DNA of 64,000 bases. Origin: Promethearchaeota archaeon. Its GTDB lineage: Archaea; Asgardarchaeota; Lokiarchaeia; Sigyniarchaeales; SOKP01. The position numbers were made by a program, and so were the translations under genes. Below, piece by piece: positions 19,739-25,451 of the stretch. Below the pieces are notes generated by a model that saw nothing but the letters and a program-made list of their open reading frames with translations, searched no databases and had not been told where the DNA came from. Within the stretch, counting starts at the first letter, position 1, and each line of letters begins with the position of its first letter. The stretch is from assembly GCA_016839555.1 (NCBI GenBank), contig JAEOUA010000003.1, positions 96,001-160,000 on the forward strand, given 5' to 3'.

Positions 19739-20052
19739 TTGTCATATTCGTTGATAATATCGAAGATTTTGCATATTTTCTCCATAAAAGAATTATGGAT
19801 GAAATTTTTTATGAATTCAGAGAAAGGAAAAAGGATGAAGATCTTGGCAGCAAAACTGAAACAGAAGTGATATTTCACTTTCTTAGTAAGGTAGAATCTT
19901 CTTTAATTCTTTACGAAACAAAATTAATATTATCATCCCAAAATGAGGAGCAATTAATTAACCAAGCTCAAGAAATATTAAATAAGGTAGATAATTCTAT
20001 TAAATTTGTGAGAGGAAAAATTAGAGAGATTTTTTTATCTTACTCCTTATGA
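19735..20052 (+). CDS. hypothetical protein
   Basis: 105-aa ORF whose TTG start overlaps the upstream stop (translational coupling). Confidence 0.55.
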   Translation: MIVIFVDNIEDFAYFLHKRIMDEIFYEFRERKKDEDLGSKTETEVIFHFLSKVESSLILYETKLILSSQNEEQLINQAQEILNKVDNSIKFVRGKIREIFLSYSL

Positions 20053-21596
20053 TCTACTCTCATTCCATAACCTATCAATCTGTATCTTCTATTAATGATT
20101 CTCGAAATCGCAAAAATAAAGTCGTTTGGAATACAAATTGGAGGATTCAAGTTAATTATATAACTATTTTTTAAGATCTTAGAAACAGTTCCTGCAGCCT
20201 TTTCTGTGCCCACTACGATAAGAAATTTTTCTCCATGCTTTAAATCATGCACTTTAATCATTTCCTCAGCTCCTATAACTCTATCTAATAAATGAACCTC
20301 TAATTCAACTTCATCTATTAATTCAGGCAAAGAGCCGGGTTTTCCGGCTAAATTTCCAATTAAAGCATCTCCTTTTGTCAAGGCGGGGTCCAATTTAGTC
20401 CCTAGTCCAATTAGACCGCCAGGTTTTGCTTTTTTTAAAAACTTATTACCTTGGCTTATACTGACTATTGTTGATTTTAAAGGTCTATATTGATTTTTTA
20501 CCTTCAATCCAGGACTTATTTCGACTTTATCTCCAATTTCAATCTTACCTTGTAATACCTGACCACCAATTACACCTCCAATAAGTTTATCAATTTCTTT
20601 CCCAGGTCTATTTACATCAAATGAACGAGCAATTAAAAATTCAAAATCTTGAGTTTCATCAAATTCAGGAGTAAGAATTACTTCTTGAATTGCTCTGACC
20701 ACAAGTTCGATATTAATACCAAATAAGGCTGATATGGGAATAATAGGTGCATTTTCTGCAACTGTTCCTTTTACAAATTCTTTTATTTGACGATAATTTT
20801 TTAAAGCATCTTCTTTAGTAACAGCATCAATTTTATTTTGAATAATAATAATATTTTCTATACCTGCAATATTTAATGCTGCCAAATGTTCTCTAGTTTG
20901 GGGTTGTGGACATGGTTCATTAGCAGCTATTAATAAACAAGCTCCATCCATAAGTGAGGCTCCACTCAACATTGTAGCCATTAATATTTCGTGTCCTGGA
21001 GCATCTACAAAAGAGATATTTCTTTTAAATTGTAATTGTCCTTTACATTCTGGGCATCTAAATCGAGGTTCCCCCTCTTTTCTAGCTTCATCGACCATAT
21101 ATGAAGTATAATATTTGTCGCATACTGGACAATGGAAAATAGTGGCATTTGAATAACCTAATTTAATCGAAATGCCACGTTCTTGCTCTTCTGAGTGTCT
21201 ATCGGTCCAATCTCCAGTTAAAATCTCAACTAATGTAGTTTTACCGTGATCCACATGTCCAACCAAACCCAGATTCATTTCAGCTTGCTTGTTCATTTGT
21301 TTTTTTAACTCTGATATAGGTATTTCTTCTGTTTTTTTCATTGGTGCTCTTTTTGGCTTTAATTCTTTTTCTATTATTTTCTCTGGAGCTTTAAATCCCT
21401 TTTCTTCAGTTTCTTGTAATAGTTTCTGGGCAGCTTTAATATATTTTAAAGCAGTTGATTCTCCAATACCTTTAACTTTTAATAAATCATCTACCGTTAG
21501 ATTTGCAAGTTTTTTAACAGAATTTATTCCTGCGGCTTCTAAACTCTCAGCAGTTGCTTTTCCAATCCCGGTAATATCTTCTAATTTCAATGACAT
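20040..21596 (-). CDS. eif2g: translation initiation factor aIF2 gamma with N-terminal helix-hairpin-helix extension
   Basis: GHVDHGKT, RGISIKLGY, Zn knuckle, DAPGHE, NKID and RYRLIGYG; N-terminal ITGIG...VKGIG tandem HhH. Confidence 0.93.
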   Translation of the reverse strand: MSLKLEDITGIGKATAESLEAAGINSVKKLANLTVDDLLKVKGIGESTALKYIKAAQKLLQETEEKGFKAPEKIIEKELKPKRAPMKKTEEIPISELKKQMNKQAEMNLGLVGHVDHGKTTLVEILTGDWTDRHSEEQERGISIKLGYSNATIFHCPVCDKYYTSYMVDEARKEGEPRFRCPECKGQLQFKRNISFVDAPGHEILMATMLSGASLMDGACLLIAANEPCPQPQTREHLAALNIAGIENIIIIQNKIDAVTKEDALKNYRQIKEFVKGTVAENAPIIPISALFGINIELVVRAIQEVILTPEFDETQDFEFLIARSFDVNRPGKEIDKLIGGVIGGQVLQGKIEIGDKVEISPGLKVKNQYRPLKSTIVSISQGNKFLKKAKPGGLIGLGTKLDPALTKGDALIGNLAGKPGSLPELIDEVELEVHLLDRVIGAEEMIKVHDLKHGEKFLIVVGTEKAAGTVSKILKNSYIINLNPPICIPNDFIFAISRIINRRYRLIGYGMRVDHKE

Positions 21597-22252: not shown

Positions 22253-24415
22253 ATGGCTCTAATCCGTAAAAAAAGCTTTATTTTGGTACTCCTTTTTTTA
22301 TTTATTTTTAGTATTTCGAGTATTTCTATTCTTTATTATAATGAATTGGCTCTTAAAAACGAAAATGAGGCATTAGCTTCTAATGGAAGCTCTCAATTTA
22401 CTTTTCCTTTGTTGCCCTCGATTGATTATGAATCATTAAATGATACTTGGTATAATCCAAAATTAGAGATGATAATTATAGTACCAAATGGAAGCGAAAT
22501 TTTTGCGAATGCGTGTAAACCGTTAGCAGAATGGAAGAATCAAAAAGGAGTGAAAACTCTAATATTAAGCAATTATTCTTTATATCCTGGAGAAGATAAT
22601 CAATCAAAAATAAGAAATATGATAAAATCATACTATGAATCTGATGGAATTAGATGGGTCTTATTAGCTGGAGATGCTCAAGATGATTTGATCCCAATAC
22701 GGAAAATCTATAATCCAGATACAATAGTTATAGGTGATACTGAACCTCATGGTTTTAGCCAGTCTTATAAACCTACAGATTATTACTATGCGGATCTTAC
22801 AGGAAGCTGGGATTCGGATGGTGATGGAATTTATGGAGAAATAACATTATTTTCAGATGAAATAAATTGGATTCCAGAAGTTTATGTTGGACGTTTGCCA
22901 GCAAGTAATGTTAATGAACTTTCTGAAATGATTAATAAAACACTAAAATATGAAGAAGATCCAGAAATAGGTGATTGGATGAATAGAATGTTATTAGCAG
23001 GGGGAGTATCAGAACCAGTTAATCCAATAAAAGATCCTGATGGAGAAGATGAAGCAAGGCTCACTTCATATATCTTACAATATTATGTTCAAGATCAGAT
23101 GAATTCAACCCATCTTTGTCGTACTACCTCAGCTTATACACCACCAGTTCCCTATGAAGATCTAAATCATAGTAGTTTCAATAATTCCTTTAATGATGGA
23201 TATTCTACAATATTATTTGCTGGTCATGGTGATTATGATGAATTCGCTGATGCGGATGGTGGTATTAGAACATTATATACGAGTGGAGATGCTCAAGATT
23301 GTTCGAATGCTTATAATCCATCCCTAGTTTATGCTGATGCGTGTACAACTTCCTGTTATGACTCTGATGATTTTGATAATAATATTGGAGAGATCTTAAT
23401 TAAGAATAAAAATGGTGGCGCAATCGGGTACATCGGTGGATTAAGATTAACCTGGTATTATACTAATGATTATTTACTTGAGGCGCTCAATCGAGGGAAT
23501 GCGAAATATTTCTGGAAAGTATTTTTTGAGGATAAAATATTCCAGCAAGGAAAAGCATTATATGATTCGAAAGTTTCCTATATGAATAGTTTTTACTATA
23601 AATTTAAGAGAGTTCCATATCATGTAGAAGCCGAGCGCAAGCAATTATCAACATATTGTTTGTTAGGAGATCCGGAAGTGGATATATATACGGATATTCC
23701 CGGTAAAATCGAAAATATTTCACTCCCTTCAACTATCTATGAAGGGCAGTTAGTAGAAATAGAAAAAATTACAGATAATTATAGTAGAATTGTTCCTTAC
23801 CCCCGTCTTTATATTACCACAGAGGATGGCATAGAAAGAACAGTCTATGGCGATAAAAACGGAAATGTGAAATTTCGATTACCTTTAGGAGCGTATAAAA
23901 CCTATAATATATCAATATCTGGTCATAATTTGGACAAATTTTCCAATTTTTCTTTTATTACTGAGCCTGATAATAATCTTCCAAAAATAAACAATTTTTT
24001 ATATTCTCCAAATCAGCCCACTGTATCTACAAATATTAACTGGTATTTTAAGACTACTGATAATGAATCCGGAATAGAAAGTCTATTTCTTATATATTCA
24101 GCAGATAATTTTAAAACCTATCAATATATTCAGTTTAAAAATGATTTTACTGAAAATCAAGAAGATTTTATGTTTCGAACCTTAAAATTGGAGCCCGGAG
24201 ATTATCAATATATCTTATATGCAAGGGATTATGCTAACCATGGAATTTATTTATGGTTACCTTCTTTTCAAATTTCTATTAACATTCCACTAACTTACTA
24301 TTTCATTGAAAGTATTGCCATAACCTTTGCAATTATTGCTGCTGGTTTTTGTATATATTATGTGGTTATATTAAAAAATTACCCAAGAAAAATAGAAAAA
24401 TTCACAGAAATCTAA
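22253..24415 (+). CDS. C25 family (gingipain-like) cysteine peptidase, membrane-anchored
   Basis: Signal/TM; WKNQKG, VLLAGD, DYYYADL, VGRLP, catalytic AGHG and DAC, GGAIGYIG, LLGDP; C-terminal TM. Confidence 0.88.
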   Translation: MALIRKKSFILVLLFLFIFSISSISILYYNELALKNENEALASNGSSQFTFPLLPSIDYESLNDTWYNPKLEMIIIVPNGSEIFANACKPLAEWKNQKGVKTLILSNYSLYPGEDNQSKIRNMIKSYYESDGIRWVLLAGDAQDDLIPIRKIYNPDTIVIGDTEPHGFSQSYKPTDYYYADLTGSWDSDGDGIYGEITLFSDEINWIPEVYVGRLPASNVNELSEMINKTLKYEEDPEIGDWMNRMLLAGGVSEPVNPIKDPDGEDEARLTSYILQYYVQDQMNSTHLCRTTSAYTPPVPYEDLNHSSFNNSFNDGYSTILFAGHGDYDEFADADGGIRTLYTSGDAQDCSNAYNPSLVYADACTTSCYDSDDFDNNIGEILIKNKNGGAIGYIGGLRLTWYYTNDYLLEALNRGNAKYFWKVFFEDKIFQQGKALYDSKVSYMNSFYYKFKRVPYHVEAERKQLSTYCLLGDPEVDIYTDIPGKIENISLPSTIYEGQLVEIEKITDNYSRIVPYPRLYITTEDGIERTVYGDKNGNVKFRLPLGAYKTYNISISGHNLDKFSNFSFITEPDNNLPKINNFLYSPNQPTVSTNINWYFKTTDNESGIESLFLIYSADNFKTYQYIQFKNDFTENQEDFMFRTLKLEPGDYQYILYARDYANHGIYLWLPSFQISINIPLTYYFIESIAITFAIIAAGFCIYYVVILKNYPRKIEKFTEI

Positions 24416-24591
24416 ATTAATAAAACTTTTAATCATTTTTTTTAATCTTTAAAAATCTTAAGAGTAAAGCAGCCTTAGAAAAGAAAAAATAAGTTTTTGA
24501 ATCATTAATCCCTAAGATTCGACTTATTTATTCCTTTTAAATTTAACGCATAAACTTTAATTATAAGGGGTTCTTTATTCTATCCAAATTT

Positions 24592-24657
24592 AAACCATCA
24601 AGTTTTAAGTTATCAATTTCTTAGAAATTGAGATTACTTAAAAATCAACTATGGTTT
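24592..24657 (+). other. long imperfect hairpin followed by a T10 tract, directly upstream of the permuted 5S locus
   Basis: Nested inverted repeats AAACCAT/ATGGTTT, TTTTAAGT/ACTTAAAA and TCAATTTC/GAAATTGA; T10 at 24655-24664. Confidence 0.55.
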
Positions 24658-24664
24658 TTTTTTT

Positions 24665-24840
24665 GGCCACATAAAATGCAGCTCTTCGCTGCAGCGCCGA
24701 AAGTTAAACTTTGTTGCGTTAGCGATAGTACTTCTGTTGAAATCAGCGGGAAACGCTAAACTGTAAGTTCGCTTACGGTCATAGTAACAAGGGATAGTAC
24801 CCGGTCCCATACCGAACCCGGAAACGCTTTTTATGTGGCT
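24665..24840 (+). ncRNA. precursor of permuted 5S rRNA with terminal processing stem and BHB-like motif
   Basis: GCCACATAAAA (24666-24676) / TTTTATGTGGC (24829-24839) stem; side hairpin TGCAGC/GCTGCA; GCG/CGC helix; AAA bulge at 24822-24824; central CCG/CGG helix. Confidence 0.75.
24703..24823 (+). rRNA. rrf: 5S rRNA, circularly permuted gene (3' half 24703-24767, UUCG linker, 5' half 24772-24823)
   Basis: Conserved loop C CCCATACCGAAC. Helix I ACTGTAAG/CTTACGGT closed by TTCG. Helix II GTAACAAGG/CTTTGTTGC. Helix TTAGCG/CGCTAA with loop-E AGTA/GAA. Length 121 nt. Confidence 0.88.
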
Positions 24841-24950
24841 AAATAATTTTTATAATGCTTCTTCTATCTATAGTATCCTTTTGCCATAATTTTTTAAACA
24901 ATTAATAATATCTTAAATATAATATATTATTTTATCGCTTGAATAATAAT

Positions 24951-25451
24951 ATGGTAAAGAAATACGTCATTTTTCTCAAAAGAATTTGGAGATCATGGTT
25001 TATAATCTTAGTAATAATTATTATTATCCTTGCGTTTTATAATTTAATTGCAGCCATAATTTTAACGGGTATAACACTTCTTTTATTTGTATTTTCTTAT
25101 ATTCCGTCCTTCTTCTTTAAAAATAGAGTAGTGCGCTTTCTAAAAAATTATTATAGGATTAAAGATGATGATATCATTAAGCATTTTAGCAATAAAAAAG
25201 ATAAAATAAAAAAGGTTCTATTTGATTTAGCACAGGATCAAGCAAAAAAAGATTGGCTCATCGTGTTTGTAAATAATCATTACATCTATTTTCATAAAGA
25301 TATAATTGAGAAATATAAAAATCTCTATCAAAAAGGTTACGGCGAAAAAAAGATTTTTGATCTATTACAAAAGATTGATATTGAGACGAGAGCAGAAATT
25401 AAAGCAATAAATACTACTTTAAAGGCACATAATAGACTTTCAGAAGAATAA
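24951..25451 (+). CDS. membrane protein (2 N-terminal TM segments)
   Basis: Hydrophobic N-terminus and basic soluble domain; ATG 24951 preferred over TTG 24939. Confidence 0.6.
   Translation: MVKKYVIFLKRIWRSWFIILVIIIIILAFYNLIAAIILTGITLLLFVFSYIPSFFFKNRVVRFLKNYYRIKDDDIIKHFSNKKDKIKKVLFDLAQDQAKKDWLIVFVNNHYIYFHKDIIEKYKNLYQKGYGEKKIFDLLQKIDIETRAEIKAINTTLKAHNRLSEE

What the first reader, a model, noticed from the sequence alone, without database searches (positions are those of the whole stretch)
24665..24840. Bulge-helix-bulge-like stem predicts EndA/RtcB circularisation of the 5S RNA
Seen in sequence: the 5S block is enclosed by an 11-bp stem (GCCACATAAAA/TTTTATGTGGC) and a GCG/CGC helix (24694-24696/24825-24827). 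A 3-nt AAA bulge on the 3' strand (24822-24824) follows a central helix CCG(A)/(C)CGG with one A.C mismatch, and AAG (24701-24703) is unpaired on the 5' strand. Each bulge lies 3' of the central helix, which is correct BHB polarity. Established: archaeal splicing endonuclease cuts after the second nucleotide of each bulge, and RtcB circularises the excised piece. Inference: cuts after A24702 and A24823 release 24703-24823. Ligation gives CCGAACCCGGAA|GTTAAAC, matching the canonical archaeal 5S sequence across that region, as a 121-nt circle. The 5S rRNA would mature like an excised intron and may be a covalently closed circle in the ribosome.
Basis: partly seen in the sequence, partly recalled or inferred. 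Interest (0 to 1): 0.88.

Follow-up and report, generated by a model that had tools for sequence, protein, structure and literature searches.

The report
Back-to-front 5S rRNA gene, ring-forming
This Lokiarchaeial (Asgard) archaeon encodes its only 5S ribosomal RNA with the two halves swapped, between cut signals of the tRNA-splicing enzyme, so a normal 5S can arise only by cutting and rejoining the transcript, most likely into a 121-nt ring, as in most Asgard lineages sampled.

Summary
Window 24703-24823 is a circularly permuted 5S rRNA gene: the 3' half comes first, the native ends are sealed by a UUCG loop, and the 5' half follows. It is the only 5S-like locus in the 3.7-Mb genome. The leader and trailer form an 11-bp stem, a 3-bp helix, a 4-bp central helix (with one A.C mismatch here) and two 3-nt bulges. 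[quoted passage not shown]

The layout recurs in 118 of 131 sampled genomes of the family. All eight BHB pairs covary. It also recurs with other break points (loop C, loop B), and each of those has its own BHB that restores a normal 5S. In a 151-genome phylum sample, the permuted gene (82 genomes) and the canonical gene (48 genomes) never occur in the same family. The family of the cultured Lokiarchaeum ossiferum has canonical genes. EndA (two paralogues) and RtcB are encoded.

No RNA data exist for this organism, so ligation and the circular end state remain inferences. I found no paper describing this. This scan had already noted the same arrangement in at least 99 other genomes. New here are the moving break points, the BHB introns inside the gene, and the canonical sister family.

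The parts
24636..24644 (+). TATA-like box ACTTAAAAA, putative promoter of the 5S precursor (inference)
   Evidence: A (G)A(T)ACTTAAA block lies about 22-28 nt upstream of the leader stem in relatives of the genus and family. Canonical 5S genes of the sister family also carry a TATA-like box upstream.
24666..24676 (+). 5' arm of the leader-trailer processing stem (GCCACATAAAA)
   Evidence: Predicted in the minimum-energy fold of the precursor. A CCACA/TGTGG-type stem is present in relatives.
24677..24693 (+). Leader hairpin TGCAGC-TCTTC-GCTGCA, inserted between the outer stem and the BHB (three-way junction)
   Evidence: A hairpin of the form (T)AGC-loop-GCT(A) sits at the same place across the family with variable loops. 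It is absent from the other orders and classes sampled, where the stem runs straight into the BHB.
24694..24696 (+). BHB outer helix, 5' strand (GCG), pairs with 24825-24827
   Evidence: Compensatory variants in relatives: ACG/CGT, CGT/ACG, CAT/GTG, ACA/TGT, AAA/TTT. 92.5% paired on 64 sequences.
24697..24700 (+). BHB central 4-bp helix, leader strand (CCGA), pairs with 24818-24821 (A24700.C24818 mismatch)
   Evidence: Relatives have CCGG/CCGG or CTGG/CCAG (all four pairs formed). The fourth pair is the least conserved (11 of 64 unpaired).
24701..24703 (+). 5' bulge/loop AAG; predicted EndA cut after A24702
   Evidence: Cutting after the second bulge nucleotide gives G24703 as the first nucleotide, the same in all type A relatives.
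24703..24767 (+). 3' half of 5S rRNA (canonical positions about 55-120: helix III proximal strand, helix II 3' strand, helices V/IV, loops D/E, helix I 3' strand)
   Evidence: Rfam half hit at 24659-24769. nhmmer model positions 50-115 map to 24701-24766. Covariation in helices II, IV and V.
24768..24771 (+). UUCG tetraloop closing helix I where a normal 5S has its 5' and 3' ends
   Evidence: Helix I is 24760-24767 paired with 24772-24779. Most caps across the family and phylum are UNCG-type: UUCG, UACG, UCCG.
24772..24823 (+). 5' half of 5S rRNA (canonical positions 1 to about 54: helix I 5' strand, loop A, helix II, loop B, helix III, loop C)
   Evidence: Rfam half hit starting at 24771. nhmmer model positions 3-52 map to 24773-24824.
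24818..24821 (+). BHB central helix, 3' strand (CCGG); in the mature RNA this is the 3' strand of distal helix III
   Evidence: RNAalifold pairs it with the leader in the precursor.
24822..24824 (+). 3' bulge AAA; predicted EndA cut after A24823
   Evidence: A 3-nt bulge is present in all relatives.
24825..24827 (+). BHB outer helix, 3' strand (CGC)
24829..24839 (+). 3' arm of the leader-trailer stem (TTTTATGTGGC)
24847..24851 (+). T5 run, probable archaeal transcription terminator (inference)
   Evidence: T-rich tracts follow the trailer stem in relatives.

Best explanation
The locus is the organism's only 5S rRNA gene, and it is circularly permuted.

Proposed pathway:
1. A precursor of about 190 nt is transcribed, roughly from 24660 to 24851 (inferred).
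2. The leader and trailer pair. An 11-bp stem, a leader hairpin and a 3-bp helix present a relaxed bulge-helix-bulge site, in which the leader sequence CCGA pairs with the last CCGG of the 5S.
3. The splicing endonuclease EndA cuts after A24702 and after A24823 (inferred from the BHB rule and from comparison with relatives).
4. The ligase RtcB joins A24823 to G24703 (inferred). This recreates the conserved ...CCGAACCCGGAA-GUUAAAC... segment, the 3' side of helix III.

The native 5S ends are already joined by a UUCG-capped helix I, so the product is a 121-nt covalently closed ring with the normal 5S fold. The ring is probably the form that enters the ribosome.
For: Shown here:
- Permutation: two Rfam half hits in swapped order. 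The rotated sequence gives a single full-length hit to a profile of canonical sister-family genes.
- Only 5S gene: nothing else was found in the genome, which is 92% complete.
- Real DNA: contigs from other samples are identical.
- Functional RNA: compensatory changes in helices I, II, IV and V.
- BHB under selection: the geometry holds in every family locus read (22; 30, partly the same genomes). The outer helix (92.5% paired) and the central helix (95.3%) both show double changes, against 41% or less for shifted registers and 0 of 500 shuffles. RNAalifold predicts the BHB without being told.
- Independent break points: genes broken in loop C (G019, G022, G009 and many of genus g11) or in loop B (G026) each have a BHB whose cuts rebuild a normal 5S.
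- Distribution: 118 of 131 family genomes. All 7 genomes of the other orders of the class. 82 of 151 genomes in the phylum sample, where families with a canonical Rfam 5S (48 genomes) never have the permuted gene and the reverse.
- Enzymes: two EndA-domain genes and one RtcB gene.
- Splicing machinery already acts on this gene family: strict 30-nt hBHBh' introns in loop D, whose removal gives exactly the intron-less relatives' sequence, and relaxed 30-nt introns in loop C.
- Precedent: the permuted SRP RNA of Thermoproteus is cut by EndA, circularised and functional (PMC4731332).
- Caps: most helix I caps read, across the phylum, are UNCG-type tetraloops, which are stable structural loops and not known cleavage sites (the structural role is established knowledge).
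Against: - No RNA evidence exists for this organism or its family. No RNA run holds it, so neither the joint nor the absence of free ends has been seen.
- In this genome the central helix has an A.C mismatch.
- There is no inner helix after the 5' cut site, so the motif is a relaxed BHB. Cleavage of it depends on a broad-specificity EndA, which is not tested.
- The CCGG that must pair with the leader can also pair within the 5S (native helix III). The minimum-energy fold of this genome's precursor forms the outer stem but not the BHB.
- Archaeal 16S rRNA circles, and 23S circles in the studied isolates, are re-opened before use, so a circle need not be the end product.
Confidence: 0.72

Rival explanations
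1. Circular intermediate only. EndA and RtcB make the ring, but it is then opened in or near the helix I cap, giving a linear 5S with conventional ends. This would parallel permuted tRNAs of Cyanidioschyzon and archaeal 16S and 23S circles that are re-linearised.
For: - Circular pre-16S and pre-23S are generally believed to be re-linearised (PMC12918454).
- Permuted tRNA genes mature through a circular intermediate (cited in PMC4267664).
- In genus g5 the cap carries a 31-32-nt expansion with no BHB (G010, G074), so the cap region tolerates or needs extra RNA.
Against: - In most lineages the cap is a 4-nt UNCG loop on a 7-8-bp helix, with no conserved flanking signal.
- No BHB or other known cleavage motif is found there.
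- The Thermoproteus SRP RNA and some archaeal 23S rRNAs stay circular.
Confidence: 0.17
2. Cut but not joined. The mature 5S is a linear, permuted molecule with ends at the BHB cuts (a nick in helix III), as the brown-algal mitochondrial 5S is permuted in the final product.
For: - Permuted linear 5S exists in brown-algal mitochondria (PMC4267664).
- In the layout of this window, the nick lies in an internal loop, and both flanking helices could still form.
Against: - Relatives place the break inside loop C or loop B, which are conserved functional loops. Unsealed nicks at different essential sites are unlikely to be tolerated.
- EndA products are the standard substrate of RtcB, which is encoded. 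Excised archaeal BHB RNAs are normally circularised (established knowledge).
- The cuts always restore the exact canonical sequence, which matters only if the ends are joined.
Confidence: 0.08
3. Non-functional remnant or assembly artefact. The real 5S gene is canonical and lies in unassembled sequence.
For: The genome is 92% complete, and rRNA genes are often missing from metagenome bins.
Against: - The same locus is found in 118 of 131 family genomes, including many at 98-100% completeness, and none has a canonical 5S.
- Strong compensatory covariation.
- Identical contigs in independent samples.
- Family-level mutual exclusion with canonical genes.
Confidence: 0.01

Closest known systems
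Permuted, circular SRP RNA of Thermoproteus tenax / T. uzoniensis (Plagens et al. 2015, eLife, PMC4731332; abstract read)
   Same: - An essential structured RNA gene with its halves swapped.
- New termini lie next to a functionally important loop.
[quoted passage not shown]
- The functional product is a circle.
   Different: - A different RNA: 5S rRNA, a ribosome component.
- Not a few species but most families of a phylum.
- Several break points within one order.
- BHB introns inside the permuted gene.
- RNA-level proof is missing here.
Circularly permuted tRNA genes (Cyanidioschyzon merolae, Soma et al. 2007; reviewed in PMC3978253; cited in PMC4267664)
   Same: - The 3' half is encoded before the 5' half.
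- A BHB forms at the junction of leader and trailer.
- Excision and ligation give a circle.
   Different: There the circle is an intermediate that is re-opened at the acceptor stem to make a linear tRNA. Here the native ends are closed by a tetraloop with no evident opening signal.
Circular pre-16S/pre-23S rRNA and circular or permuted mature 23S rRNA in archaea (PMC7758197; PMC12918454)
   Same: A BHB in a leader-trailer processing stem, cleavage by EndA, ligation to a circle. In some lineages the circle stays in the ribosome.
   Different: Those genes are collinear with the RNA and the BHB lies outside the mature sequence. Here the gene itself is permuted and part of the mature RNA forms the BHB. 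The 2026 paper states that 5S rRNA is not processed this way.
Permuted mitochondrial 5S rRNA of brown algae (Rfam mtPerm-5S; Valach et al. 2014, PMC4267664)
   Same: A 5S rRNA whose helix I is replaced or closed by a hairpin, with termini elsewhere in the molecule.
   Different: - The organellar RNA is permuted in the final RNA, with an open three-way junction.
- No BHB, and no cutting and rejoining.
- The termini lie at the alpha/gamma junction, not in helix III or loop C.

Membership tests
5S rRNA (Rfam RF00001) | Score at or above the Rfam gathering cut-off (38 bits) over the full model | tested here: not met
   In genomic order there are only two half hits, 27.2 and 17.2 bits. This is the expected result for a permuted gene. 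cmscan could not be run on the rotated sequence.
5S rRNA (Rfam RF00001) | Collinear full-length similarity to canonical 5S once the permutation is undone | tested here: met
   nhmmer profile of nine canonical sister-family genes: the rotated RNA matches positions 3-115 in one hit, 56 bits, E 8.6e-19.
5S rRNA (Rfam RF00001) | Helices I, II, IV and V supported by compensatory changes; conserved loop C and loop E sequences | tested here: met
   Helices are 89-99% paired, and nearly every pair shows double changes. CCGAAC, GUUAAAC, AGUAC and GGGAA are conserved.
5S rRNA (Rfam RF00001) | Sole or main 5S gene of the genome | tested here: met
   No other 5S-like locus in G000. No canonical 5S in any of the 24 other family genomes, nor in the 25 of the phylum sample.
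Bulge-helix-bulge (hBHBh') substrate of archaeal splicing endonuclease | Two 3-nt bulges on opposite strands, each 3' of a central 4-bp helix | tested here: met
   The bulges are at 24701-24703 and 24822-24824. The central helix has 3 bp plus an A.C mismatch in this window and 4 bp in all other family loci read.
Bulge-helix-bulge (hBHBh') substrate of archaeal splicing endonuclease | Outer flanking helix of at least 2 bp | tested here: met
   GCG/CGC, then a junction and an 11-bp stem. It covaries. In the other orders and classes sampled the outer stem is 5-16 continuous bp.
Bulge-helix-bulge (hBHBh') substrate of archaeal splicing endonuclease | Inner flanking helix directly after the 5' bulge | tested here: not met
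   UUAAAC does not pair with the nucleotides preceding CCGG. At best G-C, U-A, U-A can form, with a 2-nt bulge (reading). The site is therefore a relaxed form (bulge-helix-loop), as in many non-canonical archaeal introns.
Bulge-helix-bulge (hBHBh') substrate of archaeal splicing endonuclease | Actual cleavage by EndA after the second bulge nucleotide | not testable with these tools
   Only indirect evidence: these cut positions, and no others, restore the canonical 5S in every layout.
Permuted RNA genes matured by EndA/RtcB circularisation (Thermoproteus SRP RNA, permuted tRNAs) | The 3' part is encoded upstream of the 5' part, with the native ends linked | tested here: met
   UUCG cap at 24768-24771.
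Permuted RNA genes matured by EndA/RtcB circularisation (Thermoproteus SRP RNA, permuted tRNAs) | Splicing endonuclease and RtcB ligase encoded | tested here: met
   EndA domain twice: 104 and 73 bits, ORFs of 198 and 208 aa. The second lacks the His at the position where the first reads GLEHS. RtcB at 564 bits.
Permuted RNA genes matured by EndA/RtcB circularisation (Thermoproteus SRP RNA, permuted tRNAs) | Ligated junction present in RNA | not testable with these tools
   No RNA run holds this organism. A junction-pattern scan of metagenome contigs returned only canonical 5S genes of other taxa.

The most novel reading that the evidence does not exclude
The ribosomes of most Asgard archaea, including this large uncultured Lokiarchaeial family but not the family of the cultured Lokiarchaeum and (by a 4.4-Mb closed genome, inferred) Promethearchaeum, contain a covalently closed circular 5S rRNA. 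Because the product is a ring, the gene's break point is selectively free to move. That would explain why one order shows breaks after helix III, inside loop C and in loop B, each with its own BHB. On this reading the canonical genes of the cultured family would be a secondary return to the linear layout.
Probability: 0.5. Interest if true: 0.92.

Novelty: new variant of a known kind. Interest (0 to 1): 0.85.

Why it matters
- 5S rRNA is treated as a universally linear, directly transcribed RNA. A recent survey of archaeal rRNA circularisation explicitly excludes it (PMC12918454). A 5S that must be cut and rejoined, and probably works as a ring, would be a new mode of ribosome biogenesis in the closest prokaryotic relatives of eukaryotes.
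- It makes the tRNA-splicing enzymes essential for ribosome assembly in these organisms.
- It explains a practical problem. Standard tools (the Rfam 5S model) find no 5S gene in these genomes, so Asgard genomes fail the 5S criterion for high-quality assemblies. A permuted model finds the gene at once.
- The cultured Lokiarchaeia have canonical genes. Their ribosome structures therefore cannot reveal the ring, and a different organism must be chosen for the test.
- The several break points in one order give a natural experiment on how permuted genes arise and drift.

Tried and rejected
- RNA evidence: the look-up of sequencing runs listed no RNA holder for a 10-kb stretch around the gene, only seven DNA runs. 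Read laying could therefore only confirm the DNA.
- Scan of metagenome contigs for the ligated junction in canonical order (GGTCCCAT..CGAACCCRGAAGTTAAAC). It returned 42 loci, all ordinary canonical 5S genes of other archaea and bacteria on long contigs, and no ring-derived contig.
- Scan of genome contigs with a pattern across the helix I cap. G050 is identified by its contig length of 6,035,313 bp, the published size of Ca. Lokiarchaeum ossiferum.
- VPS28 Pfam search in the genome: no hit, and the control rang nowhere, so it is uninformative. The profilin hit was below the cut-off.
- BHB search in the 31-32-nt expansions of the helix I cap (G010, G074): nothing convincing, so I read them as expansions and not introns.
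- A strict BHB could not be found in family f4 (G027, G029, G031). Their leaders fold differently and are left unexplained.
- Literature searches with seven term sets found no report of a permuted or circular archaeal 5S. Subscription journals are not covered.
- Considered and rejected: pseudogene, assembly chimera, and brown-alga-type permuted linear 5S (see the rival explanations).

Full report
**What is in the sequence**

Reading 24400-25100 confirms every element of the finding.
- GCCACATAAAA (24666-24676) pairs with TTTTATGTGGC (24829-24839).
- GCG (24694-24696) pairs with CGC (24825-24827).
- CCGA (24697-24700) faces CCGG (24818-24821), with A24700.C24818 mismatched.
- AAG (24701-24703) is unpaired on the 5' strand and AAA (24822-24824) is bulged on the 3' strand.

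The repeat finder reports the long inverted repeat independently. A hairpin TGCAGC-TCTTC-GCTGCA (24677-24693) sits in the leader between the long stem and the GCG helix. The polarity is that of a real bulge-helix-bulge (BHB) site: each bulge lies 3' of the central helix, as in archaeal pre-tRNA.

**The enclosed RNA is a 5S rRNA written back to front**

Rfam finds no 5S at its gathering score in the window or in the whole 3.74-Mb genome, which is 92% complete. At permissive thresholds it finds two abutting half matches:
- 24771 onward matches the 5' half of the model (helix I 5' strand, loop A, helices II and III, loop C).
- 24659-24769 matches the 3' half.

The native 5' and 3' ends are joined by helix I (24760-24767 with 24772-24779), capped by a UUCG loop (24768-24771).

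I opened the cap in a script and rotated the sequence. A profile of nine canonical 5S genes from the sister family then matches in one piece (positions 3-115, 56 bits). The genomic order gives two half hits.

The gene stands alone between a C25 peptidase gene and a small unknown ORF. It has a TATA-like box upstream and a T5 run downstream.

Contigs from a second sample are identical over the whole locus, and a 151-nt contig from a different study is identical over 24680-24830. Neither shows alternative joints.

**Organism**

The genome has eukaryote-like actin genes scoring 447 and 427 bits and 28% G+C. One genome of the same order has a single contig of 6,035,313 bp. That is the published size of Ca. 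Lokiarchaeum ossiferum (PMC9834061). The window therefore comes from an uncultured family of Lokiarchaeia (Asgard archaea).

**The BHB is conserved and covaries**

Twenty-three of the 25 nearest family genomes carry the same permuted gene, and none has a canonical one. At all 22 loci with a leader, the layout is a 3-bp outer helix, a 4-bp central helix and two 3-nt bulges. Cutting after the second bulge nucleotide always rebuilds the canonical 5S. Thirty loci, partly the same genomes, read the same way.
- The outer helix changes in a compensatory way: GCG/CGC, ACG/CGT, CGT/ACG, CAT/GTG, ACA/TGT, AAA/TTT.
- The central helix switches between CCGG/CCGG and CTGG/CCAG.
- Only this window has a mismatch in the central helix. 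The A at 24700 is real. The same pair is the weakest across the phylum (11 of 64 unpaired).

RNAalifold, given only the alignment, predicts the outer helix, the central helix, the 3' bulge, and helices I (capped), II, IV and V.

On 64 distinct sequences from the whole phylum, aligned to a covariance model, 94.6% of cells are paired. The two BHB helices are 92.5% and 95.3% paired, and all eight pairs show double changes. Registers shifted by 1-3 columns reach at most 41%, and 0 of 500 shuffles reach the observed values. This alignment was fitted to the structure, which favours it, but the margin is very large.

**Other break points tell the same story**

Three layouts occur within the order.
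- Type A (this window): the break follows the 3' strand of helix III (GGAA|GUUAAAC).
- Type C: the break is inside loop C (GGUC|CCAU). The 16 nt CCAUCCGAACCCGGAA sit at the 5' end of the gene. The same kind of leader (GCG-CUGG-AA|) now pairs with the 5' strand of helix III. This is possible because that helix is the palindrome CCGG/CCGG. Type C is seen in G019, G022 and G009 and in many species of genus g11. Types A and C both occur within genera g2, g6 and g11.
- A third family (G026): the break is in loop B, with CGC-CCGA-AA|A ... UCGG-AA|A-GCG.

In each case the BHB rule returns a normal 5S. This argues strongly that the ends are joined. Unsealed nicks at different conserved loops would not be expected to be tolerated.

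**Introns in the same gene**

Several species carry 30-nt inserts.
- In loop D the insert is a textbook hBHBh' intron, with a 6-bp outer helix and a 2-7-bp inner helix. Its removal gives exactly the sequence of intron-less relatives.
- In loop C the insert is a relaxed form with a covarying inner helix. It leaves a 7-nt terminal exon, CCCGGAA.
- Genus g5 has a 31-32-nt expansion of the helix I cap without any BHB.

**Distribution**

A covariance model of the type A precursor gives these counts:

| Sample | Result |
|---|---|
| Family of this window | 118 of 131 genomes |
| Two sister families of the order | 4 of 5 genomes |
| Other orders of the class | 7 of 7 genomes |
| Phylum sample | 82 of 151 genomes |

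I read 27 of the loci from the other orders and classes. They are permuted genes with UNCG-type caps. A blind search for strict BHB geometry puts the best hit exactly at the 5S joint in most of them, with continuous outer stems of 6-16 bp. The joint is shifted by up to one nucleotide (GGA|AGUU, GGAA|GUU, GGAAG|UU).

In the same phylum sample, Rfam's canonical 5S model scores above cut-off in 48 genomes. Families with canonical genes have no permuted hit, and families with permuted hits have no canonical gene.

The family that holds L. ossiferum has ordinary genes with a promoter, a T-tract and no BHB. L. ossiferum itself has two genes at 67.3 bits.

**Mechanism**

The genome encodes two EndA-domain proteins of 198 and 208 aa. 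The first has Tyr, His and Lys residues where I expect the catalytic ones. The second has no His at the corresponding position. This suggests a heterotetrameric, broad-specificity enzyme, which is inference. One RtcB gene is present.

The proposed path is:
1. Transcription of a precursor of about 190 nt.
2. Leader-trailer pairing.
3. EndA cuts after A24702 and A24823.
4. RtcB joins the 2',3'-cyclic phosphate end to the 5'-OH end.
5. The result is a 121-nt ring.

What is shown: the permutation, its conservation, selection on the BHB, and the presence of the enzymes. What is inferred: cleavage, ligation, and the persistence of the ring.

Two weak points apply to this genome:
- The motif lacks an inner helix, so it is a relaxed BHB.
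- The CCGG strand can pair within the 5S instead of with the leader. The minimum-energy fold of this precursor forms the long stem but not the BHB.

**Comparison with what is known**

The closest precedent is the permuted SRP RNA of Thermoproteus, which is cut by EndA, circularised and functional (PMC4731332). Other relatives are:
- permuted tRNA genes, where the circle is only an intermediate;
- BHB-dependent circular 16S and 23S rRNA, whose genes are not permuted;
- the brown-algal mitochondrial 5S, which is permuted in the final RNA without splicing (PMC4267664).

A 2026 survey states that archaeal 5S rRNA is not processed through circularisation (PMC12918454). Seven literature searches found no report of a permuted or circular archaeal 5S.

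**Earlier notes of this scan**

The same arrangement had already been noted in at least 99 other genomes. Some follow-ups report environmental RNA with the predicted joint in Heimdall-group and Atabeyarchaeia lineages. I could not test those claims and do not count them as support.

This window adds:
- the Lokiarchaeial family picture;
- the moving break points;
- the introns and the 7-nt exon;
- the family-specific leader hairpin;
- the A.C mismatch;
- the canonical genes of the cultured sister family.

**Verdict**

I put cut-and-join at about 0.85-0.9, and a ring as the ribosomal form at about 0.6. RNA from these organisms is the decisive missing piece.

Noticed in passing
L249, L250, L253-L257 (G145, G142, G060, G133, G041, G058, G116): 30-nt canonical hBHBh' introns in loop D of the permuted 5S gene. 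Removing them gives exactly the sequence of intron-less relatives. Some genes carry two introns plus the permutation.
   Followed up: yes
L007, L011, L015, L249-L251, L268 (G008, G020, G016, G145, G142, G074, G111): 30-nt relaxed BHB intron in loop C (UCCG-AA|...CGGG-AA|C) with a covarying inner helix. It leaves a 7-nt terminal exon, CCCGGAA, between the intron and the permutation cut.
   Followed up: yes
L017 and L251 (G010, G074; genus g5): The helix I cap carries a 31-32-nt structured expansion in place of the UUCG tetraloop. No BHB was found, so it may be an expansion segment or an unknown processing site.
   Followed up: partly
L268 889-1007 (G111): A second, weak (33 bits) and apparently partial type-C-like 5S copy about 620 nt downstream of the intact type A gene. 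It is possibly a remnant of a layout switch.
   Followed up: no
L217-L219 (G027, G029, G031; family f4): Permuted 5S genes whose leaders fold differently: a leader hairpin abuts the central helix, and in G031 an extra hairpin sits at the joint. No strict BHB was found.
   Followed up: partly
L035 (G032, a closed 4.4-Mb genome of the sister family): Three tandem canonical 5S genes spaced about 375 nt apart. Tandem arrays are one possible raw material for creating permuted genes.
   Followed up: no
window 20040-21596 (-): A 518-aa aIF2-gamma with an N-terminal helix-hairpin-helix domain (HHH_5, residues 4-58) ahead of the GTPase domain.
   Followed up: partly
window 22253-24415 (+): A 720-aa peptidase of family C25 (gingipain-like, 208 bits) lies directly upstream of the 5S gene.
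   Followed up: no
L183 1459-2055 (-) and L184 1417-2043 (-) (G000 contigs C3, C4): Two EndA paralogues of 198 and 208 aa. The second lacks the His at the position where the first reads GLEHS, which suggests a catalytic plus structural subunit pair (heterotetramer type).
   Followed up: partly
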